From NCBI GenBank assembly GCA_027459725.1, contig DAIDHK010000001.1:195411-259410 (forward strand): a stretch of 64,000 nt of DNA. The letters run 5' to 3'. The translations under genes and the position numbers were made by a program. Under the pieces are notes generated by a model. That model did no database searches and was not told where the DNA came from. It saw only the letters and a program-made list of their open reading frames with translations. Source of the stretch: Candidatus Levyibacteriota bacterium. Lineage in GTDB: Bacteria; Patescibacteriota; Microgenomatia; Levybacterales; UBA12049. This document shows positions 8,611-32,458 of this stretch, piece after piece; the stretch's first letter is position 1; every line of letters begins with the position of its first letter.

Positions 8611-11343
8611 ATGTATATTTTCTTTTATCTCTTATTGACAAGACAGATCTTACTTAGTCATTATAATGATATGAACGAACAGAAGCATGAAAAAGTAAAG
8701 GCAATTTTACCATCCGTTGATTATAATTATTTTATTACTCCAAAACAACTGAAAGTTTTTCTTTTTATATTATTCGCTTTACTCACTCCTTGTATAATTT
8801 TCATGAGTAGTATTTTTGTGTTAACTTATATTCATAGGAATGACTCTATTAATCAGACACTTATCAACCCTGGTATTTTGCCCGATAATCCCCTTTATCC
8901 GGTAAAAATATTTATTGAAGACAATTTTGTCCGCCTATTACCGAAAAATTCAGATAAGCTAAACTTCAATATGCATCTATCCAACGAGCGTCTGGCAGAA
9001 GTTCATAGTTTGCTTATACAGGCAGAAAGTTCCGGTGTTACCTTTAATAACAAACTAAGCTATGTACCTAAGGCATATGCCCAAACCGGGTCTTCAACCA
9101 TGTCAAACAACCAATCAACTGGCCAGTTGCAACAAAAAGCTGATGAGTATTTAACTTTTACTCAACTGCAGCAATATTCTATTCAGAACAATCTCCTGCT
9201 AGCTCGAAAAAACAAGGATTTGACTATTACCTACTGTTTAGAAGATAAACTATCACAAATAAACACAGTTTATTCTAATCTTCAAGCTACTGTAACAAAT
9301 CTTGCGAATGCTAACACTACAAATAATATTAACCTCATAAATCATGATTATATTTTGCTGAATATTAATTTAGATAGTGCTAAAAGAATTGCCCAGATGG
9401 CTGACCAATGTATCGGAAACTATACTGATAATTCACTTGACATAAATAACTCACCCCAAGGCTCTGCTTCAGCGTATCAAAAGATACCTCTGACTCTTAA
9501 TAACTCTGCTAATTCATCTAATTCCACTGCAATTTATACATTTCCTAATCTAACCTACTCACTTTCCATCTCAAAAAACCTTGTTGTTAATATCCCCACT
9601 GCGCTTTCCGACTATTCGCTACTGCAGCAAGAGGCTCAAAGTGAAATAAACAGAATCAACGATACACAATTACTAGCAAGCAATATAACTATGGCCAACA
9701 CTCAACAAAAACTACTTTCAGATGATGTAACAGGAGAAATTTCGAGTATATTCAATGACAAGTCTCCTGTACCACAAGAGGCTTTGGATATTCTGCAACC
9801 TATAGAAGCGAGCATGCTGATTTCTCACGACACCTCTACCCAAGGCATTAATAAACTAGCTCAATATAGCATTCCTATCGCCAGTACTTTCACTGTCAAC
9901 GATATTCATAACCTGTCTAATATTGTACATAACACTCTGTTAGTTCCACAAACGAGCCAAACGGTTCAACAGACCGAAGACTTGATGCAGTTGTATATGA
10001 AAGATGTAACAAACGATACCGCTTTGATTGGAAATCTACCCAATTCAAATAATATAAATAAAACACTAAAAAAACAATTTTTATCGTCCCTGATACTCGT
10101 ACCTGACCAGTTAAAAATTAATGAAACATCTACTCCTGCTATCGCGGCGGTTATCAGTAATATTCTTCCTTTGAATGCTTCATCCTTACAAAACGTTGTC
10201 ACGAGCATAACCGGCTTATCGGTACCAGAAGCAGTAAACTTTTATATTTCTCAAATGAATATAGATAAAAATACCATTAATCAATTTATCGCAGAAAAAC
10301 AATCCTCAGTATATATTATTCCTATTATTTTAAGCTTTAACCAAACAGCAGATGATACTCGAAATATTCTTAAATCAACTAAGACATCTATACCTAACAA
10401 TCAAGGCTATTTAACAAATACAGCTTTGCTAACTTCATCGGTCAATCAAGCTTCTGCAACCGTACAATCTCCCTACTATATAGGCAATTCTACTACTAAC
10501 AACCCTACAACTGGCTCTAACTCAAATACATCCTCTGAATCTTCACCTGCAAATAACAATACAAATAATAACAGCATCAACTCATCAAATAATCAAACGC
10601 TAACCCCTATACCAACAATTATATTAACACAACCCGGTTCAACCTCTACAACTCCTATAACAAACCCTATGCCCACTCCCACACTTATTCCTATTCCTAC
10701 TCAAGCAGCTACAATTCAAATCATTCAGTCTGACAACCCATCAATAGTAAATTATATGCCCTCAACAGCTGACTGTAGTAATAGCAACCCTAATGGTATA
10801 TGTAATAATGGACAAACTTGTCAAAACCTAGGCACGTCGTTTGCTTGTGCATATGCTACATGTACAAATGGCACTTCCTGTCACAATCCTAATAGACATG
10901 GCGCCTATGACTGTGGGGCACAATGTAGTGCAAACGGATCCGAATGTTGTCTCATTCCAAAACAAACTCCCACATCTTCTGCTGCTAATGGACAAGTCTG
11001 TGCTCAGTCATATGGAGGTAACTGTTACAGCTGGGCGACAAATGCCTGCCCATCCGGACATCAAGCAGCTAATCCATCTGATCCTTACGTTGATTGCCGC
11101 ACTGAGAAAAACGCTCCTCACCCCGATTACTGTTGCATTACTACTTCTCAACCGGCATCCAGCGTACAGTCAAACTCTCAATCCAATCAATCATATAACT
11201 CTAATACACAAAACAATGGCAGCATTAATACTAATACTGCTAACAATAACAGCTATAATACCAGTAGTACTAATGCCACAACTTACAATTCAAATAATAA
11301 TAACTCAAGCAATGGATTGAATATAACAGCCAATGGAAATTAA
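8611..11343 (+). CDS. Large (910 aa) membrane-anchored/secreted surface protein; N/S/T/Q-rich with Cys-rich C-terminal module and N-terminal GILPDNPLY (DUF5667-like) motif
   Basis: N-terminal TM/signal anchor, GILPDNPLYPVK motif shared with ORF 61466..62032, long low-complexity Asn/Ser/Thr tracts, about 30 Cys clustered in residues 720-830. Confidence 0.6.
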   Translation: MYIFFYLLLTRQILLSHYNDMNEQKHEKVKAILPSVDYNYFITPKQLKVFLFILFALLTPCIIFMSSIFVLTYIHRNDSINQTLINPGILPDNPLYPVKIFIEDNFVRLLPKNSDKLNFNMHLSNERLAEVHSLLIQAESSGVTFNNKLSYVPKAYAQTGSSTMSNNQSTGQLQQKADEYLTFTQLQQYSIQNNLLLARKNKDLTITYCLEDKLSQINTVYSNLQATVTNLANANTTNNINLINHDYILLNINLDSAKRIAQMADQCIGNYTDNSLDINNSPQGSASAYQKIPLTLNNSANSSNSTAIYTFPNLTYSLSISKNLVVNIPTALSDYSLLQQEAQSEINRINDTQLLASNITMANTQQKLLSDDVTGEISSIFNDKSPVPQEALDILQPIEASMLISHDTSTQGINKLAQYSIPIASTFTVNDIHNLSNIVHNTLLVPQTSQTVQQTEDLMQLYMKDVTNDTALIGNLPNSNNINKTLKKQFLSSLILVPDQLKINETSTPAIAAVISNILPLNASSLQNVVTSITGLSVPEAVNFYISQMNIDKNTINQFIAEKQSSVYIIPIILSFNQTADDTRNILKSTKTSIPNNQGYLTNTALLTSSVNQASATVQSPYYIGNSTTNNPTTGSNSNTSSESSPANNNTNNNSINSSNNQTLTPIPTIILTQPGSTSTTPITNPMPTPTLIPIPTQAATIQIIQSDNPSIVNYMPSTADCSNSNPNGICNNGQTCQNLGTSFACAYATCTNGTSCHNPNRHGAYDCGAQCSANGSECCLIPKQTPTSSAANGQVCAQSYGGNCYSWATNACPSGHQAANPSDPYVDCRTEKNAPHPDYCCITTSQPASSVQSNSQSNQSYNSNTQNNGSINTNTANNNSYNTSSTNATTYNSNNNNSSNGLNITANGN

Positions 11344-14936: not shown

Positions 14937-16022
14937 CTAAAAATAAGAATATGCCCAATAGCCAAAATTAGTAATTCCTTTCTTATGTAAATATGCCATC
15001 TTCGCCTCAGATGACACAAGGTCTTCAAACCATATTATATGGCTTTGACCATTATCCGTATAATGAATGACCGTTTCTTGAGAGTTCCTATCTCTAGATA
15101 TAGTACAATTTAATTTATAGCAATGATTTAAGAATTGTTGTTGAATTTGTAGATCACTTAAAGCTGTACCACTTCCAATAGTCTGTTCTTTAGAGTCTAC
15201 TGTCCAATCATAGCCAAACATTCCAAACACCACCACAAGCTTATCCGCCTGCACAACAATCTCATAATCACTGATCATTTTTGACAAATTATAATCACTG
15301 TTATCGTTACTTACTGATTGAAGTGGAAAGTTGGGTCCTGGTTGACCACTTGCTTTATGCAAATCGTAAGCCATAATATAAACTTTATCAACATCCTTGT
15401 TAAGATAAGTTAAATCAAATGGCCTAGGCCGGTAAAATAGATCTCCATACATTGTAGTATCAAAGCTTAAATTATTTTGTTTTGTCTGTTGATGAAACTT
15501 GTCGTAAAACTTATCAATCTGATCCACAATTGAGCTAAAAGGTAATGATTGCAGTTCCATATCAATGACAACTCCATCAAATCCATTGTTTTTGGCGATG
15601 TTTATTGTCTGATTAATAATCTCTTGCTGTATTTGTATATTAGATAAAATTTTACTGTTATCACTGTTATCAAGCATACGTAGGGTCAGTAGCTTTTTCT
15701 GGTTAGCTCCAACTAATCCATTAAAAACTTTAATGTCTTTATATCCATCTTCAGTGGTTTCAATACCAGAAGAATTGGCAGCAATACCGAAATAAACAAC
15801 CTCGGAATACTTTGCATCAATTTTAGGAGAAGAGCCGGAAATACTCCAGTAAGGAACGAAAATTGTATATTGATTCGTCCTTGCCATCTTTACTGTTGGA
15901 GTAGGACTATCTGCAATCTCTTTAAACACTGGCATAGGAACCGGCGTACTCAATATGTGCCATGCAATCAAAGCCGCAATGAATATAAAAACCCAAAGGA
16001 TAGCAAAGTGCTTCATGTTCAC
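14937..16022 (-). CDS. Secreted glycoside hydrolase family 18-like protein (chitinase/peptidoglycan hydrolase-like)
   Basis: Signal anchor; FDGVVIDMELQ resembles the GH18 DGxDxDWE catalytic strand (with E retained); downstream IMAYD matches the GH18 MxYD motif. Confidence 0.5.
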   Translation of the reverse strand: MNMKHFAILWVFIFIAALIAWHILSTPVPMPVFKEIADSPTPTVKMARTNQYTIFVPYWSISGSSPKIDAKYSEVVYFGIAANSSGIETTEDGYKDIKVFNGLVGANQKKLLTLRMLDNSDNSKILSNIQIQQEIINQTINIAKNNGFDGVVIDMELQSLPFSSIVDQIDKFYDKFHQQTKQNNLSFDTTMYGDLFYRPRPFDLTYLNKDVDKVYIMAYDLHKASGQPGPNFPLQSVSNDNSDYNLSKMISDYEIVVQADKLVVVFGMFGYDWTVDSKEQTIGSGTALSDLQIQQQFLNHCYKLNCTISRDRNSQETVIHYTDNGQSHIIWFEDLVSSEAKMAYLHKKGITNFGYWAYSYF

Positions 16023-16319
16023 ATTATAACAGGGGTATTAAAAGGTAATTAAATCTACTATGCTAAAATTATCTGGTGTTTCTCTTTATTAGTTTAATCT
16101 ATTTCATCGACTAAGATGTTGAATCCAGCATTAATTACCAATCGTCTATTTTCTATATTATTGTAATGACTCTAAAACATCTCTATACCATTAAGGTTAT
16201 CTTCTGTTCCCTACCAATTATAACTACCCTATGTTATTAATAAATAACCATGAATATCTAAAAACGAATTAAATTTTTTTAATAGTTCCTGATGCTCTTT
16301 TCTCAGCGAATGAAAAATT

Positions 16320-16660
16320 GGATAAAAAGATACTACAGAATTTACTTTTCATTCTTCCTTCTTAAAATATGTCATGTCCTGAACCTTGTACTCGGCTGAG
16401 GGAATATACTTCGTGACTAATGCAATCATTCTTTCCGAAATATCAATACCGATAACCCTATGTCCTCTATCTACAAAATATTTATCTATGGTAATTCCAG
16501 CCCCGCAACCAACATCTAAGACTGTAGAGTGTGCCTATAATTTTTTATTTATCTGATCTAAATAAAAAATATTTGAGAACATATTTTTGTTAGCATTATA
16601 TTCTTCAGCAATTTTGTTATACCCTTCTTTTATGAAATCATTTAGCATAGCAAACTTTAT
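16320..16660 (-). pseudogene. Disrupted class I SAM-dependent methyltransferase (in-frame stop before motif I)
   Basis: Minus-strand translation gives ...FYLDQINKKL-stop-AHSTVLDVGCGAGITIDKYF...RVIGIDISERM; intact motif I (LDVGCGAG) and motif II, but reading frame interrupted by TAG and no usable start. Confidence 0.45.
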
Positions 16661-16664
16661 CTGA

Positions 16665-17195
16665 CTAGAGTGGAGAAGCCTTAAATTTTAATAGATAACC
16701 TAAGAACGATATTATCAAATGTAATGAAAAATAAATTGTAAGTATTGTAAAGTATAAATACCATGATAAAATTACGACTGGTAGTGTAAAAATAATCCCC
16801 CCTAAGATGTAATCTATTTGATCAAAGATAAACCAGCTTTGTCCTGAATTAATATTAATTTGTCGTTTAAAGAAACTTTTAACGCTATCTCCTGTCAAAG
16901 CACCCAATCCCATCAGCCCACCACACCATAGCTGATTTAAATCATGCCCATCGCTTATCTTAAATTTAAAAATCACAATTTCAAACCAAGCAATTAATAT
17001 TCCCATCACCACACCACTAAGTAAGCCTCTCCAAGTTTTATGGTCTCCTAAAATCCTTTTACCTCTAAACTTTGCATATCCATCCAAAGGATAGTTATAC
17101 CTATTAATAATAGGTATTTTATTGACTAAAACCGGAGCCATATTCGCAAAACCTGCCGGCAGAAAAAATAAAAATGCAAAAATAACATCATTCAT
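16665..17195 (-). CDS. CarS-like integral membrane protein (CDP-archaeol synthase / DUF46 family homolog)
   Basis: 176 aa, about 5 TM; LPAGFANMAPVL...PLDGYAKFRGKRILGDHKTWRG and GDSVKSFFKR...FDQIDY motifs match the conserved cores of archaeal CDP-archaeol synthase as I recall them. Confidence 0.55.
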   Translation of the reverse strand: MNDVIFAFLFFLPAGFANMAPVLVNKIPIINRYNYPLDGYAKFRGKRILGDHKTWRGLLSGVVMGILIAWFEIVIFKFKISDGHDLNQLWCGGLMGLGALTGDSVKSFFKRQININSGQSWFIFDQIDYILGGIIFTLPVVILSWYLYFTILTIYFSLHLIISFLGYLLKFKASPL

Positions 17196-17217
17196 AAGAT
17201 TTTGTAAGTTTAAATAG

Positions 17218-18174
17218 CTAAACTACGAACGATTTATAGTTTTGTTCTATCTGTTCATCAAAATTGCGCAAAAAAGTGATTTGTTTAGGCAAGACGGAAA
17301 CTTCAATTCCTTCCTGCCTCACAACCGGATCTCCATCGATTTGCACATAAGGCTCACCCTGGATTAGTAAGTGGGAGGCTTTAAAATGAACTTTTCCCAA
17401 CTCAGAATAAAAAGGATGCTTGAAACCCCTCAACCGTAAATTTTGCACATAAGCATACTTTGTAGAAAATAAAGTACAATCCAATAATCCATCATTCAAT
17501 CTCGCCCTAGGTGAAACTAAAAAATTTTGTCCCACTACTGGTGAATTGGCGACTACCAGAGAACCGGCTGTGGCCTTTAATGTCACTTTTTTATCGATTG
17601 TAAAAGTAATCTCACTCTCCGGATGACTGAAGAAACTCCTAATACCAGAAATTATATATGATTTTAAACCTATGTAATGATAGTTAACTCTATTAAACAC
17701 TATACGTGCATCAAAACCAGCACTAATGTTAAAAACTCCAATTGGTATTTCAGGAATGTTACTTTGCATAATATCTATGGTTATGGAATTCGGTTGAGTT
17801 TGTAATACCGCCATCGCTTTCTCCAGAGTCTCTACTCCCAGGCAGAAAGATAAAGCATTGCCCGTACCCATAGGTATGATTGTTAAAGTAGGTTTTCTCT
17901 TAACCTGCACCACAGCCTGACAAACTTTATTAATGGTGCCATCCCCTCCTGCAATGGCAAGTATATCAGGCTTCTCTTTTTCAATAAAAGATTGTAGATT
18001 TGCTATCTTAGTAACAAGATAAGGGTGTTCGGGCAATTGAGGAAACTTCTCTCTTCCTTTCAGCCATATTTCAGTCGATCTACCATCACTTGATTTGGGA
18101 TTAAGTAAATAAACAATCTTTTTCATATAGGTCATCTTGCTAATCAAAGAATGAAAGCATCTTCTTACGAACAC
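17218..18174 (-). CDS. Lipid kinase, diacylglycerol kinase catalytic-domain family (YegS/BmrU-like)
   Basis: AIAGGDGT motif and overall DAGK_cat architecture; true start may be the internal Met (MKKIVYLLNP) about 48 nt downstream of annotated start. Confidence 0.7.
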   Translation of the reverse strand: MFVRRCFHSLISKMTYMKKIVYLLNPKSSDGRSTEIWLKGREKFPQLPEHPYLVTKIANLQSFIEKEKPDILAIAGGDGTINKVCQAVVQVKRKPTLTIIPMGTGNALSFCLGVETLEKAMAVLQTQPNSITIDIMQSNIPEIPIGVFNISAGFDARIVFNRVNYHYIGLKSYIISGIRSFFSHPESEITFTIDKKVTLKATAGSLVVANSPVVGQNFLVSPRARLNDGLLDCTLFSTKYAYVQNLRLRGFKHPFYSELGKVHFKASHLLIQGEPYVQIDGDPVVRQEGIEVSVLPKQITFLRNFDEQIEQNYKSFVV

Positions 18175-18181
18175 ATCTCGC

Positions 18182-18832
18182 TCAGGAAGACATTATTCTT
18201 TTTATTTTGTTCCATTTAGGACATAAATAAGAAAACCAGGGAGCTGCAACTTCATTTCTTGTGCCTTTCTCTAACAGACTTACTAAATTCTTTCTTGACG
18301 GTATCTGGGTAAGCAAGTTGTAGGTTTTACCGATACCCAATTTACAATGAGCATCGCTATTAGCTGCTGGAGTTAACTTATATGTGGAGATAAAAACCTG
18401 GGCTAGTTTACGAGTTTGTGGCTGCATACTACGACCATTGAATACCTCTATTATATCGACAAACTTAATTATATTACATAAACTTTGTTCACTTATTCCT
18501 TTTCTTAAAATCTCAAATGGGTGGGGGATACAAACTAAACCATTTTGCTTACTAATCTGTTTTACTGTTTCTAAGGAAGATAAGCCCGATTCAATTTTGC
18601 TATTTAAAAATAATCCGATTATTTCTCCTTCTGTGGTATTAATTTCTTCACCTACAATAATTCGCTCACCTAACTTTCTTTGTAACTTCTCAGCAAAGTC
18701 AATTCTATTGTGATCTGTAACGGCAATTACATCTAATGTTTTGGATAAAAGCAAACTTTTATAATCATTCTCGCTTAAACCACCATCTGGTGATAGAATA
18801 GAGTGTGTGTGAAGATCGATTTTAATATTCAT
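18182..18832 (-). CDS. PHP-domain metal-dependent phosphoesterase
   Basis: N-terminal IDLHTHSILSPDG and downstream VIAVTDHN His motifs typical of PHP family. Confidence 0.7.
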   Translation of the reverse strand: MNIKIDLHTHSILSPDGGLSENDYKSLLLSKTLDVIAVTDHNRIDFAEKLQRKLGERIIVGEEINTTEGEIIGLFLNSKIESGLSSLETVKQISKQNGLVCIPHPFEILRKGISEQSLCNIIKFVDIIEVFNGRSMQPQTRKLAQVFISTYKLTPAANSDAHCKLGIGKTYNLLTQIPSRKNLVSLLEKGTRNEVAAPWFSYLCPKWNKIKRIMSS

Positions 18833-18839
18833 ATTAATT

Positions 18840-19430
18840 ATGTTATCAACATTTAAACCTTACATTGACAAAACAACACAAAAACTAGTTTCCCCTCTGG
18901 CCAACGTTTCTCCAAACCTATTAACTATTATTGGTATTGTACCATCAATACTCTTTTTTATTTTAATTTTAAATCATTTGTATGTCTGGGCATTAGTTAT
19001 TTTTTTAGGTAATGCTTTTGATACCCTGGATGGTGCGGTTGCTAAAAGATTTAATAAAAAAACTCCTTTTGGGGGATTTTTAGATTCAACATTTGACCGT
19101 ATCGCTGATTTTTTTATTATAATGAGTTTTGCTTTTGCGAATATAGTAAGGTGGCAAATCTGTGTTTTATTATTAGCTATTTCTTATCTGGTGAGTTATT
19201 CCAGATCTAGAGCTGAGTTAGCAAGTAGCACTAGACAAATATTTGCGGTAGGGTTGATTGAAAGAACTGAAAGGTTAACTGTTATCTTCTTATCTTTTTT
19301 TGGTTACTTTTTATTACCTAATTTTACTTTCGGTAACTTAAATCTACTGGAAATAGTATTTATCGTTCTAATTCTCTTATCAATTGTCACTTTTTTACAA
19401 CGCGTTGCCGCTGCCTATAAACGCCTTTGA
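18840..19430 (+). CDS. CDP-alcohol phosphatidyltransferase family protein (phospholipid head-group transferase)
   Basis: Signature D-G-x2-A-R-x8-G-x3-D-x3-D present (DTLDGAVAKRFNKKTPFGGFLDSTFDRIAD); multi-TM. Confidence 0.75.
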   Translation: MLSTFKPYIDKTTQKLVSPLANVSPNLLTIIGIVPSILFFILILNHLYVWALVIFLGNAFDTLDGAVAKRFNKKTPFGGFLDSTFDRIADFFIIMSFAFANIVRWQICVLLLAISYLVSYSRSRAELASSTRQIFAVGLIERTERLTVIFLSFFGYFLLPNFTFGNLNLLEIVFIVLILLSIVTFLQRVAAAYKRL

Positions 19431-19519
19431 TACTAAAATTAGCTCTAATCGAATTTCTTTAAACCGTTTATAGATAGAAAGCTGAAATATTGATGAGAGG
19501 TCTGTTTAAAATATGAATT

Positions 19520-21640
19520 TTATTCAACTCTTCCGGTGAAGGTGGATTTGGCCAGCATAGCTGACACAATATTTTGAGGAACTACATCATAATGACTTGG
19601 TTCCATGTAGTAACTTGCCCGACCTTGCGACATACTGCGTAACTGAGTGGCATAACCTGAGAGTTCGGCTAAAGGAACCAGAGCGTTAACTATAGTTGCA
19701 CGATTTTTTTCTTCTGTACCCATGATTTGAGCACGTTTAGCAGATAAATCACCAATAATATCTCCCATAAATTCAGATGGGGTAGTAACTTCCACCTTCA
19801 TAATAGGTTCAAGTAACTGCATACTAGCTCTTTTAGAGGCTGATTGCAGAGCCATAGAGGCAGCAATCTTAAAGGCCATTTCGGAAGAGTCGACATCATG
19901 GAAAGATCCATCATAACATGTTACTTTCACGTCAACCACGGGAAAACCTAACAGCATACCGTTTTCCAATGTTTCCTTTGAACCTTTTTCAACAGCTGTC
20001 ACAAATTCAGCCGGTATAGCTCCTCCCTTAATTGCATCTACAAACTCATTGCCCTCACCACGAGGCTTTGGTTCAACACGCAAAAAGCAATGTCCATATT
20101 GACCACGACCACCCGACTGACGAATATACTTACCTTCTCCTTCAGCCATTTGACTTACTGTCTCTTTGTATGCAACTTGAGGAGCACCTACGTTGGCCAA
20201 TACATTAAACTCCCGCTTCATACGATCAACCATAATTTCCAATTGTAACTCACCAATACCAGAGATGATGGTCTGGCCTGTCTCATGATTAGTCTTTACC
20301 GTAAAAGTTGGATCCTCTTCCATTAAGCGCTTTAGTGCATAACCCAATTTTTCTTGATCTGATTTTGTTTTTGGTTCGATTGCTAAAGAAATCACAGGTT
20401 CAGGGAAAGAAATTTTCTCCAATACAATTGGTTTAGCTTCATCACACAACGTATCACCGGTGGTAGTTTCTTTCAAACCAACAATAGCCACAATTTCACC
20501 CGCATAGGCTTCTTTAATTTCTTCTCTTTGATTGGCATGCATTAACAATAAACGTCCTACACGCTCTCTTTTGTCCTTTACACTATTATAAATATAAGTC
20601 CCAGCTTCAATCTTGCCGGAATATACACGATAATAAGTCAGCTTACCTACATGCGGATCATTTTGAATTTTGAAAGCAAGACCAGCTAATGATTCTTCTG
20701 GCACCAATTTTCTTGTTTCTTCTGAACCTGTTTTAGGATTATGGCCAACCACGTGATCTAAATCTTTTGGTGAAGGTAAGTAATCTATAACTGCATCCAA
20801 AAGTGGCTGTACTCCTTTGTTACGCAAACTGGTTCCCGCATAAATTGGTACTAATTTATAAGCGATTACTGCGGCACGTAAAGCATTTTTTAATTCTTCT
20901 AAACTTGGTTCTTCACCACCCAAATATTTCTCTAATAATGCATCATCTGTTTCACAAATTTTCTCAATTAATTTAGCTCTATGTTCTTCGACTTGAGCTT
21001 TCATTTCTTCAGGAATATTATCTGATTCATCATATTTTGCTCCTAGTTCATCCGACCCCCAAATCAAAACTTTGCGTGTTAGTAAATCCACGTTGCCTTT
21101 ATAAGAAGACTCTGCTCCAATTGGCAAGACCATTATCGCAGGGTTTGCACCTAAACGATTTTCAATGCTTTGCACTGTGGCAAGAAAATCAGCACCTAAT
21201 TTATCCATTTTGTTAACGAAACAAATACGCGGCACACGATATTTATCTGCCTGACGCCATACAGTCTCAGACTGTGATTGAACACCTTCTTCGGCATCCA
21301 GAACCGTAATACCCCCATCAAGTACGCGCAAAGAACGTTCTACCTCAGCAGTAAAGTCAACGTGACCTGGAGTATCAATGATATTAATACGATTACCTTT
21401 CCAAAAGGTAGTAGTAGCTGCAGAAACGATAGTAATACCTCTTTCTCTTTCTTGTTCCATCCAGTCCATCTGAGTATTACCTTCGTCAATGTCACCAATT
21501 TTATAAGTACGTCCGGTATAAAATAAAATGCGTTCGGTAGTAGTGGTTTTACCTGCATCAATGTGAGCAATGATGCCTATATTGCGGATTTTATCTAAAG
21601 GATAAATACGTGATTTGTCATCTGTCATAAAAAACGCCAA
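19520..21640 (-). CDS. fusA: Elongation factor G
   Basis: 706 aa; AHIDAGKTT P-loop, DTPGHVDF, NKMD motifs; full five-domain length. Confidence 0.97.
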   Translation of the reverse strand: MAFFMTDDKSRIYPLDKIRNIGIIAHIDAGKTTTTERILFYTGRTYKIGDIDEGNTQMDWMEQERERGITIVSAATTTFWKGNRINIIDTPGHVDFTAEVERSLRVLDGGITVLDAEEGVQSQSETVWRQADKYRVPRICFVNKMDKLGADFLATVQSIENRLGANPAIMVLPIGAESSYKGNVDLLTRKVLIWGSDELGAKYDESDNIPEEMKAQVEEHRAKLIEKICETDDALLEKYLGGEEPSLEELKNALRAAVIAYKLVPIYAGTSLRNKGVQPLLDAVIDYLPSPKDLDHVVGHNPKTGSEETRKLVPEESLAGLAFKIQNDPHVGKLTYYRVYSGKIEAGTYIYNSVKDKRERVGRLLLMHANQREEIKEAYAGEIVAIVGLKETTTGDTLCDEAKPIVLEKISFPEPVISLAIEPKTKSDQEKLGYALKRLMEEDPTFTVKTNHETGQTIISGIGELQLEIMVDRMKREFNVLANVGAPQVAYKETVSQMAEGEGKYIRQSGGRGQYGHCFLRVEPKPRGEGNEFVDAIKGGAIPAEFVTAVEKGSKETLENGMLLGFPVVDVKVTCYDGSFHDVDSSEMAFKIAASMALQSASKRASMQLLEPIMKVEVTTPSEFMGDIIGDLSAKRAQIMGTEEKNRATIVNALVPLAELSGYATQLRSMSQGRASYYMEPSHYDVVPQNIVSAMLAKSTFTGRVE

Positions 21641-26176: not shown

Positions 26177-27919
26177 ATGCATAAACTGTTCGTTAAAAAT
26201 TACCAATTTTTTATAATTACAGTTCTATTAGTAATTGGTTTTATCTTAAGATTTTATAATCTTAATTGGGGAGCTCCTTTTTATTTTCATCCTGATGAAA
26301 GAAACATTGCATCATCTATTTCAGAACTGAATTTCCCAAATCAAATGAACCCTCATTTTTTTGCTTACGGTTCCTTACCTATCTATTTAGTATATTTTAT
26401 CGGACTGCTAATGAATCTTTTTATTAACTGTCATATATCCACTTTTAATTGTACCCAGATTAATTTTACTCAAGCAATTTTATTGCTGAGAACTATCGCA
26501 GCGGTCAGCAGTTTATTATTAATTCCTTTATCTTTTTACATTGGCAATTATCTTAAAAACAGGCCCGTTGGGTATATGGCGGCATTCTTAACAACTTTTA
26601 GTGTGGGATTAATACAGTTCGCCCATTTCGGCACTTATGAAATGTGGCTAACAATCTTTTCTACCTTAATGTTTGGTACTTGTCTTTGGTACTACAAAAC
26701 TAATAAGCTCCTACCCTTTATTTTAATGGCTCTAACAACAAGTATACTTTGTGCAAGTAAGGTTACATCTTTTGTATTACTACCCATTCCACTTCTGCTT
26801 ATTATCAAACTATCAATTGAAGAGTTTAAAATTTATAAGTTTATAAGACATAAAGTCTTTCATTCTTTTTTTGTTCTCCTAAAGTTGATACTTTTTTTAT
26901 TCATTGTTGCGGATATTTATATTCTGACTAATCCATATACATTTCTTGATAAACCCTCCTTTTTAAATAGTATGCATTATGAATCTGGAGTAGCTCTGGG
27001 TACCGAACCAGTCTTTTATACAGGAGAATTTTATAATACTACTCCTGTTATCTTTCAGTTTATTCACGTATTTCCTTTTCTACTAAATCCTTTAATAACG
27101 GTAATTTTCCTTTTTTCCTTCATTTATATTTGTTATCTGATAGTTAATCCTTATCTAAGTCATATATCTCTTTTAAATTTAAATTCTAAACCATTTAGAA
27201 ATAGAAGATCTCAATTCAATTATTTTTTAGTTATCATTTTTTTTCTGCTAATATTTCTGTCTCAAGCCTTCTTCTTTGTTAAATGGACTAGATATATGGT
27301 TCCAACATTGCCTTTTATATATCTGATTGTTTCAATATTCCTATTTGACTTTTATACATATGCTCAAAAAAAATGGTCTAATATACGGATAACTACAGTC
27401 TATGTGGGAGTTTTGGCGTGCACTGTTATTTTCGCTTTAAGTTATATAATCAGTGTATATGTAGAACCTGATACCCGTCTGCAGGCTTTACAAGCAGCAA
27501 AAGAAATTTTACCTTCAGACACCAATATCCTAAGTGAGGTGTACGATTTAGGTATAATTCCTTTTAATAATTATTATACTAATATCAAATTATATAATTT
27601 TTATGATTTAGATAATCCTTCTTCTCAAACTAATTCAACAACTTTAAAAAATGCTTTACAGGCAGCTCAAGCAATAATTTTGCCTAGTCAACGAATTATG
27701 AAAGTAAGAATAGATAATCCACAAAAATTTCCTAAAGGACACAATTTATATTCCAGATTGTTTTCTGGACAGCTAGGATTTAAACTTATTTATGAGACTC
27801 CTTGTGATATATTTTGTAAGATTACGTATTTGGGTAGTCCTGTTTTCTCCTATGAAGAAACAGCTAGTGTATTTGATCGTCCAACCGTATTTATTTTTAA
27901 GAAAATTAAACAAAAATGA
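26177..27919 (+). CDS. Polytopic GT-C-fold membrane glycosyltransferase-like protein (HPDER-motif paralog A)
   Basis: About 12 TM helices; periplasmic loop-1 motif FHPDER; soluble C-terminal domain ending DRPTVFIFKK; paralogous to 27916..29724. Confidence 0.5.
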   Translation: MHKLFVKNYQFFIITVLLVIGFILRFYNLNWGAPFYFHPDERNIASSISELNFPNQMNPHFFAYGSLPIYLVYFIGLLMNLFINCHISTFNCTQINFTQAILLLRTIAAVSSLLLIPLSFYIGNYLKNRPVGYMAAFLTTFSVGLIQFAHFGTYEMWLTIFSTLMFGTCLWYYKTNKLLPFILMALTTSILCASKVTSFVLLPIPLLLIIKLSIEEFKIYKFIRHKVFHSFFVLLKLILFLFIVADIYILTNPYTFLDKPSFLNSMHYESGVALGTEPVFYTGEFYNTTPVIFQFIHVFPFLLNPLITVIFLFSFIYICYLIVNPYLSHISLLNLNSKPFRNRRSQFNYFLVIIFFLLIFLSQAFFFVKWTRYMVPTLPFIYLIVSIFLFDFYTYAQKKWSNIRITTVYVGVLACTVIFALSYIISVYVEPDTRLQALQAAKEILPSDTNILSEVYDLGIIPFNNYYTNIKLYNFYDLDNPSSQTNSTTLKNALQAAQAIILPSQRIMKVRIDNPQKFPKGHNLYSRLFSGQLGFKLIYETPCDIFCKITYLGSPVFSYEETASVFDRPTVFIFKKIKQK

Positions 27920-29724
27920 AATATAAAATATTGCTTTTCCTGATTGTAATACTCGCAGCCGTATTTCGTTTTCATGGTTTAAATTGGGATCAGGGAGAAC
28001 ATCTGCATCCAGACGAAAGAGCAATCGTAATGTATACATTACAGCTCCAATTCCCCAGTAGTATAAGTCAATTTTTTTCTATCCAAAGCCCTTGGAATCC
28101 TCACTTTTTTGCTTATGGTTCACTCCCGTTATATTTGCTTAAACTTACAAGTATGCTGTTTACAAATCTGGCTCCCTATTTAACTACCTATGATGGGATC
28201 AACCTTTTAGGAAGAGCAATCTCTGCAACTTTTGATCTTATTACCATCATCTTTATATACCTTTTAGGGAAGACCTTAAAAGGTTATAAAGAGGGTCTAA
28301 TGGCCGCATTCTTTTATTCAATAAGCGTTTTCCCTATTCAGACTTCTCATTTTTATGCAGTTGATACTCTGCTTACTTGCTTTATTACAATTACTATATA
28401 TCTTTTAATTAAATTCTATGCAAATCCAAGTTTACTTAAAGCAATACTCATAGGAACCAGTATAGCTTTTGCGATGGCAACTAAAATCAGCGCGACAGTT
28501 ATAGGCGTGTCGGTAATAATTACATTATTGGCAGATTTCTTTCTATTAATTGCAAATCATCCTTTTCATCCTAAAAAATGGTTATATCATCTTCCGAATT
28601 TTATCTTTAATTTATGTAAATATAGTTTGAGTATAGTTATTACTTTACTCGTTGTTTACTTCATATTAGAACCTTATGCTTTTATAGATTTTAATGATTT
28701 TATTAACCAGACCTTACAACAGGATGCCATGACAACTAATGCCTTCACTTTTCCTTATACTCTACAATATGTGGGAATACCACCATATTTCTATGAAATA
28801 AAAAATATTTTTTTGTGGGGACTTGGTCCTCTTCTTGCAATTTTGGCTTTTACAGGAACTCTATATGTAACTTATATCTCTTTACTAAAAATTGTTTTCC
28901 AATCTGAGAAACCATACAAATATAATTTGAGCTCAAATGAGAGAGTGTTATGGGCTAATGAACTTATAATATTAATCTTCTTCTGGGTATATTTTTTTAT
29001 TGTTGGTAAATTTGCCATTGGGTTTATGCGCTATATGCTCCCGCTCTATCCTCTACTTTGTCTCTTCGCCGCAATATTCTTGCAACATCTTATAGATATT
29101 TTAAAATATAAATATGTAAAGAAAATACATAAATCTATTTTTCTTACAGTACAGATTATTATTTTTATTTTGTTTTTGGTCTGGCCAATAAGTTTTATAC
29201 AAATCTATTCTCAACCAAATACCAGAGTACAGGCAACTGAATATATTAATCAGAATATTCCAGTGGGGACTGGAATTGCAGTAGAGCATTGGGATGACGA
29301 ATTACCTCTAGGAACTGCCTCTAATTATCAGATGCAAACCCTACCTCTTTATGATCCGGATACTCAGCAGAAATGGATAAGTATCATTAACCAGCTGCAA
29401 CAAGTACAATATCTCGTCATCGCTTCCAACCGTCTATATATCCCAATACAAAATTTAGGCAGCTGTAAGAAATATCCTTTTCCACACTGCTACCCAGTTG
29501 CGAGTATATATTATAAAAATTTGTTCGCAGGTAAACCTCTTCTCCAAAACACACCTTATGCGAATACTCCTGGCGCAAGAAATTTAGTTTTTAAAGAAAT
29601 TAAACAATTTTTGGTTACTCCTCAGATTCCTATATTAAATATCCCCATCAATGACCAATCAGCCGATGAGTCATTCACCGTTTATGATCACCCCAAAGTT
29701 ATGATATTTAAAAAAGTTTCATGA
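27916..29724 (+). CDS. Polytopic GT-C-fold membrane glycosyltransferase-like protein (HPDER-motif paralog B)
   Basis: Same architecture as upstream gene: LHPDERAIVMY motif after TM1, multi-TM core, C-terminal DHPKVMIFKK. Confidence 0.5.
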   Translation: MKYKILLFLIVILAAVFRFHGLNWDQGEHLHPDERAIVMYTLQLQFPSSISQFFSIQSPWNPHFFAYGSLPLYLLKLTSMLFTNLAPYLTTYDGINLLGRAISATFDLITIIFIYLLGKTLKGYKEGLMAAFFYSISVFPIQTSHFYAVDTLLTCFITITIYLLIKFYANPSLLKAILIGTSIAFAMATKISATVIGVSVIITLLADFFLLIANHPFHPKKWLYHLPNFIFNLCKYSLSIVITLLVVYFILEPYAFIDFNDFINQTLQQDAMTTNAFTFPYTLQYVGIPPYFYEIKNIFLWGLGPLLAILAFTGTLYVTYISLLKIVFQSEKPYKYNLSSNERVLWANELIILIFFWVYFFIVGKFAIGFMRYMLPLYPLLCLFAAIFLQHLIDILKYKYVKKIHKSIFLTVQIIIFILFLVWPISFIQIYSQPNTRVQATEYINQNIPVGTGIAVEHWDDELPLGTASNYQMQTLPLYDPDTQQKWISIINQLQQVQYLVIASNRLYIPIQNLGSCKKYPFPHCYPVASIYYKNLFAGKPLLQNTPYANTPGARNLVFKEIKQFLVTPQIPILNIPINDQSADESFTVYDHPKVMIFKKVS

Positions 29725-31238
29725 CAATATTTTTTAATAAATACATTATACTACTCTCAATTATTTTATTAGGAGCATTTTTGCGTCTGTATAATTTATC
29801 TAACGATCCAGCTGGATTTTTTTGTGACGAGGCTTCAATTGGCTATAATGCATATAGCATATTAACAACTGGTAAAGATGAATATGGTGTTTCTTATCCT
29901 GTTTTCTTTCAATCATTCGGGGACTATCGACCCCCTTTAGCGATCTATTCAACAATTCCTTTCATTATCTTATTTGGATTAAATGAATTTAGCACTAGAT
30001 TACCATCAGTAGCTTATGGACTAATAACAATCGTTGTTATGTATTTCCTTGGAAAAGAAATTAGCTATAACAAAGGTAATTCTTTTGGATTACTTGTTGC
30101 TTTTATAACTGCAACAATGCCTTGGCTTATTCACTATAACAGAACTGGCTTCGAATTTACCATCTATGTAGCTTTCTTTACGATAACAGAGCTTTTATTA
30201 TTAAAATCAGTATCTAGTAAAACATATATTGTACCTGCTTTTACGATTGCGGCTTTAACTCTTTATACATATCAACCAGCCAGACTATTAGTACCATTAT
30301 TGCTAACTGGATTCATTCTTATCCATAAAAAATTATTTTTGTTCCACAAAAAAAACACAAGCGCAGGCTTATTAACTTTCTTTATTTTAAGTCTGCCGCT
30401 TGTATTTAGCTTCTTTAATGGTCAAGGTTTTGCCCGTTTTAACATGGTCTCTGTATTTTCAGCGAATTTAACATTTGAGAAAACCATTCTGCTTATTATT
30501 CAAAATTATTTTATACAACTTTCTCCTTCCTATTTTATTTCAGGCGAGCCCACTTTTATAACACGTCACTTTGTTGGAGGATTAACTCCACTGCTTATTT
30601 CAACTCTTCCGTTTGCACTTATCGGAATCATCCATACATTTGTTAAACTTAAAGATAATAAAAATTCACAATTGCTCATGTTTTTACTTCTTATTTATCC
30701 AATAGCAGGCGCAGTTACTGCTAACGCTCCATTTACAAGTCGTTCTGTTATCGGAGCTCCCTTATTTGCAATTTTTATTAGTATAGGTATCATACAGACT
30801 ATATTACACACAAAAGGGTTTATTCAAAGTTACTTTTTTACTTCTGCAATCATTGTTGTTATTCTGTTAAACTTGATATTTTTTATAAAATTTTATATTT
30901 ATCAGTATCCTTTATATTCTGCGGATTTCTGGGGTTGGCAATATGGTGCCAAAGATATAGTTACTTATTTTTCTCAACACGAGAAACACTATGATCAACT
31001 TGTCATGGCTCCCGAGTTTAATGCTCCAGAAATTTTCTTCAAGTTTTATGCACCTAATGACTGTCAAAAATGCATGATCGGCACTCCTGACACCTTATAT
31101 AATGCAAAACTGAAACAAATCTTTGCAGTGACCCCTTCTTATTTACTTTCTCATCCTCAATATCATTTCAGAACTTTGAAAAATGTTATTTATCCAAACA
31201 AAACTATTGCTTTTGAAATAGGTAAAATTGTACAATAG
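29721..31238 (+). CDS. GT39/GT83-like (PMT_2/ArnT-type) membrane glycosyltransferase
   Basis: FFCDEASIGYNAYS loop-1 DE motif typical of PMT/ArnT-family GT-C enzymes; multi-TM. Confidence 0.5.
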   Translation: MTIFFNKYIILLSIILLGAFLRLYNLSNDPAGFFCDEASIGYNAYSILTTGKDEYGVSYPVFFQSFGDYRPPLAIYSTIPFIILFGLNEFSTRLPSVAYGLITIVVMYFLGKEISYNKGNSFGLLVAFITATMPWLIHYNRTGFEFTIYVAFFTITELLLLKSVSSKTYIVPAFTIAALTLYTYQPARLLVPLLLTGFILIHKKLFLFHKKNTSAGLLTFFILSLPLVFSFFNGQGFARFNMVSVFSANLTFEKTILLIIQNYFIQLSPSYFISGEPTFITRHFVGGLTPLLISTLPFALIGIIHTFVKLKDNKNSQLLMFLLLIYPIAGAVTANAPFTSRSVIGAPLFAIFISIGIIQTILHTKGFIQSYFFTSAIIVVILLNLIFFIKFYIYQYPLYSADFWGWQYGAKDIVTYFSQHEKHYDQLVMAPEFNAPEIFFKFYAPNDCQKCMIGTPDTLYNAKLKQIFAVTPSYLLSHPQYHFRTLKNVIYPNKTIAFEIGKIVQ

Positions 31239-31298
31239 AACCAGTTAATCAATAGAAAATATCTATCTGCCCAATATATCTTCTGTGTAATTATTAAC

Positions 31299-32351
31299 TT
31301 GAAATCATCTATGAGAAAAACAAAAGTATTCATCACTGGAGGCACAGGTTTTTTAGGAGTACATCTTGCTAGAAGATTTTTAAAAGCCAGATGGGAAGTT
31401 ACTTTATACGATATTGCAGATTTAGATGCTCAGGATCTGATTGGAAAAGTAAAATTTATAAAAGGAGATGTAACTAATAAGACTACGCTTTTAAAAGCCA
31501 TGAGAGATCACGATTATGTCGTGCACACTGCTGCTGCACTACCTATCCAAGTTGAAAAAGATATAATTTTTCATATTAATATCGATGGTACTGAAAATAC
31601 GCTTTCATCAGCTTTAAAAAATAAAATTAAAAGATTAGTCTTTATCTCCTCTACCTCAGTTTATGGTGTACCAAAATACTTACCAGAAACAGAAAACAGC
31701 CCACTAGATCCAATTGGCTGGTATGGTATTTCTAAAATTGAAGGTGAAAGATTGTGTAAAGAATATATGCAAAAAGGTCTACAAGTTAATATAATACGTC
31801 CCAAAACTTTCCTGGGTATTGAAAGATTAGGTGTTTTTTCCTTATGGTTTGAAGCAATTTATAACAGTCGTCGTTTATATATTTTAGGTAAGGGAAATAA
31901 TAAATATCAATTACTGGCAGTTACAGATGTAGTTGAAGCAATTTATAAAGCTCTCATCAGCAAGGCTCATAATGAAATTTTCAACGTGGGAGCAAAACAA
32001 TATGGTACCTGGAAAAGTGATTTGGGATATGTGATAAAACAAAGCAAATCGCATGCTAAAATTACGGGACTTCCAGTACTAACATCTCAGTTTATACTAA
32101 GCATTTTAGAAGGACTAAATCTGTCTCCAATAGCTGCATGGCATTATAAAACTATGCCGGTAAATTCTTATGTGTCTATATCCAAAGCGGAAAAACTACT
32201 TAATTGGCATCCTAAAAAGTCAAATAAAGAACTCTTTTTAGAAAGCTATAACTGGTACAAAAACCATAGAGACGAAATTATTAACAAAAAAGGTAATACT
32301 CATAGAGTTAACTGGAACTTCAAAATACTGGATATAGTCTCAAAATTATAA
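31299..32351 (+). CDS. NAD-dependent nucleotide-sugar epimerase/dehydratase (SDR family)
   Basis: VFITGGTGFLGVHLARRF Rossmann motif; YGISK catalytic YxxxK. Confidence 0.8.
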   Translation: MKSSMRKTKVFITGGTGFLGVHLARRFLKARWEVTLYDIADLDAQDLIGKVKFIKGDVTNKTTLLKAMRDHDYVVHTAAALPIQVEKDIIFHINIDGTENTLSSALKNKIKRLVFISSTSVYGVPKYLPETENSPLDPIGWYGISKIEGERLCKEYMQKGLQVNIIRPKTFLGIERLGVFSLWFEAIYNSRRLYILGKGNNKYQLLAVTDVVEAIYKALISKAHNEIFNVGAKQYGTWKSDLGYVIKQSKSHAKITGLPVLTSQFILSILEGLNLSPIAAWHYKTMPVNSYVSISKAEKLLNWHPKKSNKELFLESYNWYKNHRDEIINKKGNTHRVNWNFKILDIVSKL

Positions 32352-32458
32352 GTTTGAAAGGAGTTAAAGCTAACTATTTTAACCCCTTTATCAACAAGTG
32401 TGCTGCCTTCTATCGCTTGTCTGAATCATATAGAATACTTTATACTTAATATTAAATT

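What the first reader, a model, noticed from the sequence alone, without database searches (positions are those of the whole stretch)
16665..19430. Lipid module pairing an archaeal-type CarS-like (DUF46) protein with bacterial CDP-alcohol phosphatidyltransferase, DAG-kinase-like and PHP genes
ORF 16665..17195 carries the FRGKRILGDHKTWRG and GDSVKSFFKR...FDQIDY cores that I recognise from archaeal CDP-archaeol synthase (CarS/DUF46), the CTP-transferase that makes CDP-archaeol. It is in an operon with a DAGK_cat lipid kinase (GGDGT) and a PHP phosphoesterase. It is divergent, only 7 bp apart, from a CDP-alcohol phosphatidyltransferase. Together these could make and use a CDP-activated lipid (CarS-like then CDP-alcohol transferase) with kinase/phosphatase remodelling. 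That would be notable for a bacterium, and more so in an insertion within the fusA-tuf region.
Basis: partly seen in the sequence, partly recalled or inferred. Interest (0 to 1): 0.7.

Follow-up and report, generated by a model that had tools for sequence, protein, structure and literature searches.

The report
CPR bacterial CarS-type inositol-lipid salvage operon
A tiny-genome (CPR/Patescibacteria) bacterium that cannot make lipids carries a four-gene cluster, widespread in its relatives, that probably re-heads scavenged lipids into an inositol phospholipid using an archaeal-family activating enzyme and a previously unassigned phosphatase.

Summary
16665-17195(-) is a true CarS/DUF46-family protein by Pfam and fold; the CdsA model scores below its cut-off. 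It follows a YegS-type lipid kinase and a PHP phosphoesterase. The divergent gene starts 7 bp away and is an inositol-phosphate-type CDP-alcohol phosphatidyltransferase.

The setting is ordinary for this lineage. The genome is Levyibacteriota-like, and at least 566 species-level genomes, mostly CPR bacteria, encode this CarS-like protein. In 54 of 80 loci examined it sits with the transferase and the PHP gene. Two diverged transferase-CarS fusion proteins exist. The fusA...tuf placement is conserved in related genomes, so it is not a recent insertion.

Most likely function: salvage of scavenged lipid.
- Diacylglycerol to phosphatidic acid (kinase).
- Phosphatidic acid to the CDP-lipid (CarS-like).
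- CDP-lipid to phosphatidylinositol phosphate (transferase; both Ins-1-P-binding arginines are kept).
- Phosphatidylinositol phosphate to phosphatidylinositol (PHP, a non-homologous candidate for this phosphatase step).

Enzyme identities and the CarS-transferase coupling are shown. The lipid type, the acceptor and the PHP role are inferred. This is a new variant of a known pathway, of moderate interest.

The parts
16665..17195 (-). CarS-like (DUF46) membrane CTP:lipid-phosphate cytidylyltransferase, 176 aa
   Evidence: PF01864 at E 2.4e-25 and 90 bits; PF01148 CdsA is below its cut-off. NCBIfam CarS equivalog NF003114 gives 128 bits against a cut-off of 148. PDB 5GUF (A. pernix CarS) matches at E 2e-12 alone and at 2e-23 with the family profile; no CdsA hit. 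The AF2 model has pLDDT 92.9. Its only significant PDB fold match is 5GUF, with TM 0.74/0.82 and rmsd 1.8 A.
17218..18174 (-). YegS/BmrU/DgkB-type soluble lipid (diacylglycerol) kinase; likely true start at 18126 (302 aa)
   Evidence: DAGK_cat plus YegS_C. TIGR00147 gives 88 bits against a cut-off of 118.65. PDB relatives are YegS 2JGR/2BON and putative DAG kinases 4WRR/3S40, all near E 1e-10. It sits between the PHP and CarS-like genes only in Levyibacteriota-type loci, 4 of 80.
18182..18832 (-). PHP-family metal-dependent phosphoesterase, 216 aa; candidate phosphatase for the transferase product
   Evidence: PHP and PHP_C matches. The AF2 model has pLDDT 95.9. The best PDB folds are mostly uncharacterised PHP proteins (3E38 BVU_3505, TM0559 2ANU), then RNase AM. 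Putative metal ligands H8, H10, H41, E63, H104, D160 and H162 are invariant in 34 homologues. The gene lies immediately upstream of CarS-like in 59 of 80 loci. The C-terminal helix 199-215 is basic and amphipathic.
18840..19430 (+). CDP-alcohol phosphatidyltransferase of the archaetidylinositol-/phosphatidylinositol-phosphate synthase type, 196 aa
   Evidence: PF01066. NF040950 AIPS gives 155 bits (cut-off 180); NF045883 PIPS gives 100 bits (cut-off 170); pgsA gives 37 bits. PDB PIPS entries 5D92 and 6H53 match near E 1e-13. R145 and R188 align with MtPIPS R155 and R195, the residues that bind the phosphate of inositol-1-phosphate.
14937..16022 (-). GH18 family protein; conserved downstream neighbour in Levyibacteriota-type loci, with no assigned role in the pathway
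   Evidence: PF00704 at E 3e-19. It is present next to the module in L006, L020, L069 and L080.

Best explanation
This is a conserved CPR (Patescibacteria) operon that rebuilds the head group of scavenged membrane lipid.

Proposed steps:
1. The YegS-type kinase phosphorylates diacylglycerol to phosphatidic acid.
2. The CarS-like membrane enzyme uses CTP to convert phosphatidic acid into the CDP-activated lipid, taking the place of CdsA.
3. The divergently transcribed AIPS/PIPS-like transferase moves the phosphatidyl group onto L-myo-inositol-1-phosphate, giving phosphatidylinositol phosphate.
4. The PHP phosphoesterase removes the terminal phosphate to yield phosphatidylinositol.

Shown here: the enzyme family identities, and the functional coupling of CarS-like to the transferase.

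Inferred: that the lipid is a diacyl lipid rather than archaeol, that the acceptor is inositol phosphate, and that PHP is the head-group phosphatase.
For: - Family identities are established.
- Among 80 species-representative loci, the transferase lies within 3.5 kb of CarS-like in 68. PHP lies directly upstream in 59. All three occur together in 54. In about 53 of the PHP-bearing loci the CarS reading frame overlaps or abuts the PHP stop.
- Two transferase-CarS fusion proteins, P0303 (Nomurabacteria CP060223.1) and P0388, are only 34% identical to each other. P0303 lies on independently assembled contigs (NCBI and Logan).
- The operonic transferases keep the two arginines that bind the phosphate of inositol-1-phosphate in MtPIPS: 51/52 and 52/52 copies. 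The convergent PgsA/ClsA-like paralogue keeps them in 0/8 copies. The product should therefore carry a phosphate that needs a phosphatase.
- The PHP protein has an intact metal site.
- Where present, the lipid kinase sits between the PHP and CarS-like genes.
- CPR cells contain acylglycerol lipids and lack lipid synthesis (PMC7242380).
- A PA -> CDP-DAG -> PI salvage route was already proposed for Saccharibacteria from annotation (PMC6031116).
- The other 43 ORFs of this window scanned against Pfam include no lipid-synthesis gene.
Against: - No enzyme here has been assayed.
- Characterised archaeal CarS and bacterial CdsA discriminate between their substrates, and A. fulgidus CarS does not complement an E. 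coli cdsA mutant (PMC9385802). Use of phosphatidic acid is therefore an assumption.
- CarS-like, transferase and kinase all score below the NCBIfam equivalog or subfamily cut-offs.
- No inositol-1-phosphate synthase was seen in the window. The rest of the genome could not be scanned.
- The nearest PHP relatives with known function act on nucleotides or RNA, not lipids.
- PHP is missing next to CarS in about a quarter of CPR loci, and in both Nanoarchaeota contigs examined, which carry the same CarS-like protein.
- The one experimentally identified bacterial PIP phosphatase is a PgpA-family protein (PMC9246714).
Confidence: 0.5

Rival explanations
1. The module makes genuinely archaeal-type lipid. 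CarS-like converts archaetidic acid (made or scavenged) to CDP-archaeol, and the AIPS-like enzyme makes archaetidylinositol phosphate. The bacterium would then carry isoprenoid ether phospholipids.
For: - The best HMMs are the archaeal CarS and AIPS models.
- The fold matches A. pernix CarS.
- Nanoarchaeia/Nanoarchaeota (DPANN archaea) proteins P0366 and P0384 lie among the CPR sequences at 37-42% identity. Nanoarchaeota have the same transferase-CarS pair.
- The nearest named relative of the transferase outside the Patescibacteria is from Thermococci.
Against: - No GGGPS, DGGGPS, G1P dehydrogenase or isoprenoid-pathway gene is in the window.
- Lipids of a CPR-dominated small-cell fraction were all acylglycerols (PMC7242380).
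- A DAG-kinase-type enzyme is built into the operon.
- Scores are below the equivalog cut-offs.
Confidence: 0.1
2. The chemistry is the same, but the acceptor is another phosphorylated alcohol such as glycerol-3-phosphate. The module would then make phosphatidylglycerol, or another anionic lipid or glycolipid anchor, with PHP acting as the PGP-type phosphatase.
For: - The transferase is below the AIPS and PIPS equivalog cut-offs.
- The signature 'AR' is 'AK' in the window protein.
- No inositol-phosphate synthase was seen nearby.
- JGI names several close homologues 'phosphatidylglycerophosphate synthase'.
Against: - The pgsA model scores only 37 bits against 155 for AIPS.
- Both inositol-phosphate-binding arginines, plus the S132 and K135 equivalents, are kept.
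- A separate PgsA/ClsA-like paralogue that lacks these arginines is present in several of the related loci (8 copies convergent with CarS).
Confidence: 0.2
3. The PHP protein is not a lipid head-group phosphatase. It may hydrolyse a by-product, such as the pyrophosphate released by CarS, or a nucleotide. Alternatively it is linked for unrelated reasons, and the dephosphorylation is done by another enzyme.
For: - The closest characterised PHP relatives are RNase AM and a 3',5'-bisphosphonucleotide phosphatase.
- PHP is absent from the Nanoarchaeota pairs and from about 25% of CPR loci.
Against: - The order transferase-PHP-CarS is kept, mostly with overlapping or abutting reading frames, across distant CPR groups.
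- The transferase product is predicted to need exactly one phosphatase step.
- The conserved basic amphipathic C-terminal helix suits a membrane-surface enzyme.
Confidence: 0.15
4. The cluster is a recently acquired island inserted between fusA and tuf.
For: The position between two translation-factor genes is unusual compared with the classical str operon.
Against: - The same gene order occurs in other Levyibacteriota-like genomes whose module proteins are 64-82% identical.
- G+C content is 0.32-0.35, like the flanks.
- No mobile-element genes adjoin it.
Confidence: 0.03

Closest known systems
Archaeal CDP-archaeol synthase CarS (A. fulgidus / A. pernix; PDB 5GUF)
   Same: Same Pfam family and the same five-helix membrane fold (TM 0.74-0.82). 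The polar motifs GDxKT, GALxGD..SFxKR and DQxD are conserved.
   Different: Only 27% identity to ApCarS. The score is below the NCBIfam equivalog cut-off. The host is a bacterium with no ether-lipid genes in view, and the operon includes a DAG-type kinase, so the lipid substrate is probably diacyl.
Two-step prokaryotic phosphatidylinositol synthesis (Mycobacterium PgsA1/PIPS; archaeal AIPS)
   Same: A CDP-alcohol phosphatidyltransferase with the family signature and both arginines that recognise inositol-1-phosphate. The predicted product is phosphorylated and must be dephosphorylated.
   Different: The CDP-lipid comes from a CarS-family enzyme, not CdsA. The actinobacterial locus (HIT-PIPS-acyltransferase-GT) has no PHP gene. 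The signature has AK instead of AR in this protein.
Bacteroides inositol-lipid cluster (MIPS BT_1526, PIPS BT_1523, PIP phosphatase BT_1525)
   Same: The PIP synthase is clustered with its dedicated phosphatase (PMC9246714).
   Different: The Bacteroides phosphatase is a PgpA-family protein, whereas here the candidate is a PHP-fold enzyme, which is non-homologous. No MIPS gene lies in the CPR cluster.
Bacterial CdsA (phosphatidate cytidylyltransferase, PF01148)
   Same: The same reaction type and a distantly related CTP-transferase core, seen as weak overlapping hits to residues 52-115.
   Different: The score is below the Pfam cut-off (20.5 against 24). The family profile finds 5GUF but no CdsA structure. 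The protein is about 100 residues shorter.
Nanoarchaeota (DPANN archaea) transferase-CarS gene pair
   Same: An overlapping CDP-OH_P_transf -> CarS-like pair in another lipid-scavenging, ultra-small lineage. Its CarS is 42% identical to the window protein.
   Different: There is no PHP gene and no lipid kinase; an NTP-transferase gene follows instead.

Membership tests
CarS / DUF46 (PF01864) | Scores above the Pfam gathering threshold over the full length | tested here: met
   90 bits against a cut-off of 22; residues 3-173 match profile positions 3-172 of 175.
CarS / DUF46 (PF01864) | Five-transmembrane-helix fold of A. pernix CarS | tested here: met
   AF2 model with pLDDT 92.9. Foldseek against 5GUF gives TM 0.74/0.82 and rmsd 1.8 A over 156 columns, and it is the only significant PDB hit.
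CarS / DUF46 (PF01864) | Conserved polar residues of the CTP/metal cavity (GDxKT, GD..SFxKR, DQxD) | tested here: met
   D38, K53, D103, K110, R111, D125 and D128 are invariant in 28 CPR homologues and identical in the 5GUF alignment. Assigning these residues to the catalytic cavity rests on the published structure description, not on a test made here.
CDP-archaeol synthase as an orthologous function (NCBIfam NF003114 equivalog) | Score at or above the curated equivalog cut-off | tested here: not met
   128.4 bits against a cut-off of 148.
CDP-archaeol synthase as an orthologous function (NCBIfam NF003114 equivalog) | Uses 2,3-di-O-geranylgeranylglyceryl phosphate; the genome makes archaeol precursors | not testable with these tools
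   No GGGPS or DGGGPS in the 64-kb window. The whole genome is not available. No enzyme assay.
Bacterial CdsA (PF01148) | Scores above the Pfam gathering threshold | tested here: not met
   20.5 bits against a cut-off of 24, covering only residues 52-115. NF008635 gives 19 bits against 385.
Inositol-phosphate-using CDP-alcohol phosphatidyltransferases (PIPS/AIPS) | CDP-AP signature D(x)2DG(x)2AR(x)8G(x)3D(x)3D | tested here: met
   D61, D64, G65, A68, G78, D82 and D86 are present. The signature R is K69 in this protein, and R in 51 of 52 operonic homologues.
Inositol-phosphate-using CDP-alcohol phosphatidyltransferases (PIPS/AIPS) | Two arginines that bind the phosphate of inositol-1-phosphate (MtPIPS R155, R195) | tested here: met
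   They align to R145 and R188. S132 aligns to S119, and K135 to R122.
Inositol-phosphate-using CDP-alcohol phosphatidyltransferases (PIPS/AIPS) | Score at or above the NCBIfam equivalog cut-offs | tested here: not met
   AIPS 154.9 bits against 180; PIPS 100.2 bits against 170.
YegS/BmrU/DgkB soluble lipid kinases | DAGK_cat plus YegS_C domains with the GGDGT motif | tested here: met
   63.7 and 42.1 bits, both above their cut-offs. The motif is in the translation. PDB YegS and DAG-kinase relatives match near E 1e-10.
YegS/BmrU/DgkB soluble lipid kinases | TIGR00147 subfamily cut-off | tested here: not met
   88.2 bits against 118.65.
PHP-superfamily phosphoesterases | PHP TIM-barrel-like fold with His/Asp/Glu metal ligands | tested here: met
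   Model with pLDDT 95.9. 28 PDB PHP matches at E<=1e-3, the best being 3E38, RNase AM 7UG9 and TM0559 2ANU (TM up to 0.71). H8, H10, H41, E63, H104, D160 and H162 are invariant. The Pfam PHP score is marginally under its cut-off (25.2 against 26.4); PHP_C is over it.
Known PIP/PGP phosphatases (PgpA-type BT_1525) | Homology to a phosphatase family with shown activity on PIP or PGP | tested here: not met
   None of the module's four proteins, nor the other 43 window ORFs scanned against Pfam, matched PgpA. The PHP protein matches only PHP-type models.

The most novel reading that the evidence does not exclude
CPR bacteria and DPANN archaea share a laterally exchanged CarS-plus-AIPS/PIPS module that does not care which side of the 'lipid divide' its substrate comes from. 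It would activate whatever phosphatidic or archaetidic acid the host supplies. In CPR bacteria the module has recruited a PHP-fold enzyme that is a non-homologous phosphatidylinositol-phosphate phosphatase, a step with no assigned enzyme in Actinobacteria and Archaea according to the reviews read here.
Probability: 0.25. Interest if true: 0.8.

Novelty: new variant of a known kind. Interest (0 to 1): 0.55.

Why it matters
CPR bacteria lack lipid synthesis, and how they build and tailor their membranes is an open question. This operon gives a concrete, testable route. Four small genes could be expressed in E. coli to ask three things:
- Can a CarS-family enzyme work on bacterial phosphatidic acid? 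That bears on how strict the archaeal/bacterial lipid divide is at this step.
- Do these cells make inositol lipids?
- Is a PHP enzyme the phosphatidylinositol-phosphate phosphatase?

Two papers read here (2015 and 2022) call that phosphatase unidentified, and in Bacteroides it is a different protein family.

The interest is limited because the genes are common in CPR genomes, are already labelled 'CDP-archaeol synthase' in public records, and a similar salvage scheme has been sketched from annotation.

Tried and rejected
- An exact look-up of the window's CarS-like protein found no contig on record. Context came from relatives instead.
- The promoter and terminator scan of 15900-19700 gave no more sites than shuffled sequence. 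Operon structure therefore rests on spacing and conserved order only.
- A neighbour-joining tree of 156 CarS-like sequences was star-like, with A. pernix CarS on a long branch. It does not settle the direction of any transfer between CPR and DPANN, and I do not rely on it.
- Only a handful of cluster representatives carry organism names.
- Fold search against afdb50 was unavailable.
- Literature searches found no paper linking CarS-like, PIPS and PHP in Patescibacteria, apart from the annotation-level scheme of Starr et al. 2018.
- Coleman et al. 2019 does not contain the term 'CDP-archaeol', so it appears not to treat CarS.
- The gene tables held for the cultivated Saccharibacterium Southlakia epibionticum list one CDP-alcohol transferase but no PF01864 or PF01148 entry. 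The module is probably not universal, although the stored files may be truncated.
- Archaeal (Thermococci, Bathyarchaeia) and actinobacterial relatives of the transferase have no PHP neighbour. I therefore dropped the idea that PHP is the general PIP/AIP phosphatase of all prokaryotes.
- A reading of the 16023-16664 gap as a recoded gene was rejected, because TAG and TGA each end 9 of 48 genes here.
Full report
**1. What is there**

The region holds three co-directional genes on the minus strand and one divergent gene on the plus strand.

- PHP phosphoesterase, 18832->18182.
- DAGK_cat/YegS_C lipid kinase, 18174 (more likely 18126) ->17218.
- CarS-like protein, 17195->16665.
- CDP-alcohol phosphatidyltransferase, 18840->19430. 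Its start codon lies 7 bp from that of the PHP gene.

Pfam places the 176-aa protein in PF01864 (CarS-like) at E 2.4e-25. The bacterial CdsA model stays below its cut-off. NCBIfam agrees on the family, but the score (128 bits) is under the 148-bit cut-off of the CDP-archaeol synthase equivalog. The only solved relative is A. pernix CarS (5GUF), at E 2e-12 alone and 2e-23 with a profile of 28 homologues; no CdsA structure is hit. An AlphaFold model (pLDDT 92.9) superposes on 5GUF with TM 0.74/0.82 and rmsd 1.8 A, and on nothing else in the PDB. The polar motifs shared with ApCarS (PxD, GDxKT, GALxGD..SFxKR, DQxD, LH) are invariant in the bacterial homologues.

**2. The partner enzymes**

*Transferase.* It is not a generic bacterial PgsA. 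Its best models are archaetidylinositol-phosphate synthase (155 bits) and phosphatidylinositol-phosphate synthase (100 bits), with pgsA at 37 bits. All are below equivalog cut-offs. Solved relatives are the Renibacterium and Mycobacterium PIP synthases. In those enzymes two arginines (MtPIPS R155 and R195) bind the phosphate of L-myo-inositol-1-phosphate and are described as conserved in all PIP synthases (PMC4634129). They align with R145 and R188 here, and S132/K135 align with S119/R122.

*Kinase.* It resembles YegS, BmrU and soluble diacylglycerol kinases.

*PHP protein.* Its model is confident (pLDDT 95.9). The nearest solved structures are mostly uncharacterised PHP phosphoesterases (BVU_3505, TM0559), then RNase AM and a bisphosphonucleotide phosphatase. 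The expected metal ligands are invariant in 34 homologues. A conserved basic amphipathic helix ends the protein.

**3. Organism and genomic setting**

The closest species-level genome is a Candidatus Levyibacteriota MAG. Identities to it are EF-Tu 98%, EF-G 88%, kinase and transferase 82%, CarS-like 69% and PHP 64%. The window otherwise looks like a CPR genome. It has ribosomal and translation genes, type IV pilus parts, glycosyltransferases and a class II ribonucleotide reductase. The ORFs scanned contain no fatty-acid, phospholipid, isoprenoid-ether or inositol-phosphate synthase gene.

The order fusA-[transferase<->PHP-kinase-CarS]-GH18-tuf recurs in other Levyibacteriota-like genomes: L006 and L069 with the kinase, L020 without it, and L080 in part. 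Base composition is uniform. It is an old arrangement of this lineage, not a recent insertion.

**4. How general is the module**

Of these, 566 encode a relative of the CarS-like protein. The best 80 are almost all Saccharibacteria, Levyibacteriota and other CPR groups.

In those 80 loci:
- a CDP-alcohol transferase lies within 3.5 kb in 68;
- the PHP gene lies directly upstream of CarS-like in 59;
- all three occur together in 54;
- the kinase is present only in four Levyibacteriota-type loci.

The usual order is transferase-PHP-CarS, mostly with overlapping or abutting reading frames. The operonic transferases are all of the AIPS/PIPS type. They keep the two arginines in 51/52 and 52/52 copies. 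A second, convergent PgsA/ClsA-like paralogue keeps them in 0/8.

Two proteins, P0303 (from the complete Nomurabacteria genome CP060223.1 and from independent assemblies) and P0388, fuse a shortened transferase domain to a CarS-like domain. They are only 34% identical to each other. This is strong evidence that the transferase consumes the CarS-like product.

**5. Relation to archaea**

The whole family comprises about 1,640 clusters at 50% identity. Among the 150 nearest, two carry Nanoarchaeia/Nanoarchaeota (DPANN) names (P0366 and P0384, 37-42% identity). P0366 sits on a contig with a diphthamide-synthesis gene, which fits an archaeal origin. Two Nanoarchaeota contigs carrying the same CarS-like protein have an overlapping transferase-CarS pair followed by an NTP-transferase gene, and no PHP. 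A. pernix CarS is only 27% identical.

The nearest named relative of the window's transferase outside the Patescibacteria is from a Thermococci archaeon (40%). Next come actinobacterial PIP synthases (33-35%), one of them in a classical PI/PIM locus. A neighbour-joining tree was unresolved. Exchange between CPR and DPANN is plausible but not shown.

**6. Most likely mechanism**

CPR cells lack lipid synthesis and, in a CPR-dominated size fraction, contained only acylglycerol lipids (PMC7242380). The simplest reading is a salvage line:

1. Diacylglycerol -> phosphatidic acid (kinase; inferred).
2. Phosphatidic acid -> CDP-diacylglycerol (CarS-like; the reaction type is well supported, the lipid identity is inferred).
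3. CDP-diacylglycerol -> phosphatidylinositol phosphate (transferase; the acceptor is inferred from the two arginines).
4. Phosphatidylinositol phosphate -> phosphatidylinositol (PHP; inferred from conserved gene order and from the need for exactly one phosphatase).

Two papers read here (2015 and 2022) state that the prokaryotic PIP phosphatase is unidentified. In Bacteroides it is a PgpA-family protein. A PHP enzyme would be a non-homologous solution. Starr et al. 2018 already proposed PA -> CDP-DAG -> PI for a soil Saccharibacterium from annotation, so the outline is not new. The CarS-family identity of the activating enzyme, the PHP link, the fusions and the breadth across CPR are what this analysis adds.

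**7. Caveats**

- Characterised CarS and CdsA discriminate between archaeal and bacterial substrates, so use of phosphatidic acid needs a test.
- The source of inositol-1-phosphate is unknown.
- PHP is missing from about a quarter of the loci.
- A cultivated Saccharibacterium appears to lack the module.
- None of the proteins reaches an equivalog cut-off.

**8. Verdict**

The feature is a widespread, uncharacterised CPR variant of the two-step inositol-phospholipid pathway. It is built on a CarS-family enzyme and has a PHP phosphatase candidate. Interest is moderate (0.55). The decisive experiments are simple heterologous expression and enzyme assays.

Noticed in passing
window 16090-16650 (-), in the 642-bp gap between the CarS-like and GH18 genes: Remnant of a class I SAM-dependent methyltransferase (motif VLDVGCGAG). 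One frame holds five in-frame stops (four TAG, one TGA) and no frameshift. The genome uses TAG and TGA as ordinary stops, so this is a pseudogene. It is absent from the closest relative, where GH18 follows CarS-like directly.
   Followed up: partly
L086:6001-6993 (Nomurabacteria CP060223.1) and protein P0388: Natural fusion proteins with a shortened CDP-alcohol phosphatidyltransferase domain (about 150 aa, complete catalytic signature) joined to a CarS-like domain. The transferase part lacks the last helices, which form the acceptor pocket in solved PIP synthases.
   Followed up: partly
L004:11040-11771, L002:10509-11246 and 22 of the related Saccharibacteria loci: A PIG-L / LmbE-family deacetylase gene lies just downstream of CarS-like on the opposite strand, often with a phosphoglucose isomerase-like gene. 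From general knowledge, the PIG-L family includes GlcNAc-phosphatidylinositol de-N-acetylases, so a glycosylated inositol lipid is conceivable.
   Followed up: no
L090:4562-7336 and L091:182-2131 (Nanoarchaeota contigs): An overlapping CDP-alcohol transferase -> CarS-like pair followed by an NTP-transferase gene, in a DPANN archaeon. The CarS-like protein is 42% identical to the window's bacterial protein.
   Followed up: partly
Saccharibacteria loci, about 1.9 kb upstream of CarS-like (e.g. L004:7996-8676): A DUF1361 membrane protein gene is divergent from the transferase-PHP-CarS operon in 41 of 81 loci, next to arginyl-tRNA synthetase. It may be simple synteny or another membrane-lipid partner.
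   Followed up: no
window 26177-35331 (+): A run of large membrane proteins: a 580-aa protein with no Pfam match, two PMT_2-type glycosyltransferases, an NAD-dependent sugar epimerase, a 179-aa protein with no Pfam match, and a DUF2298 protein. This suggests a cell-surface glycosylation locus.
   Followed up: no
window 52798-55182 (-): A 794-aa protein with weak matches to type IV secretion coupling protein (TrwB/TraG/VirD4-like) domains, followed by two genes with no Pfam match.
   Followed up: no
window 8611-11343 (+): A 910-aa protein whose only Pfam match is a short DUF5667 segment (residues 88-138). It is otherwise unassigned.
   Followed up: no
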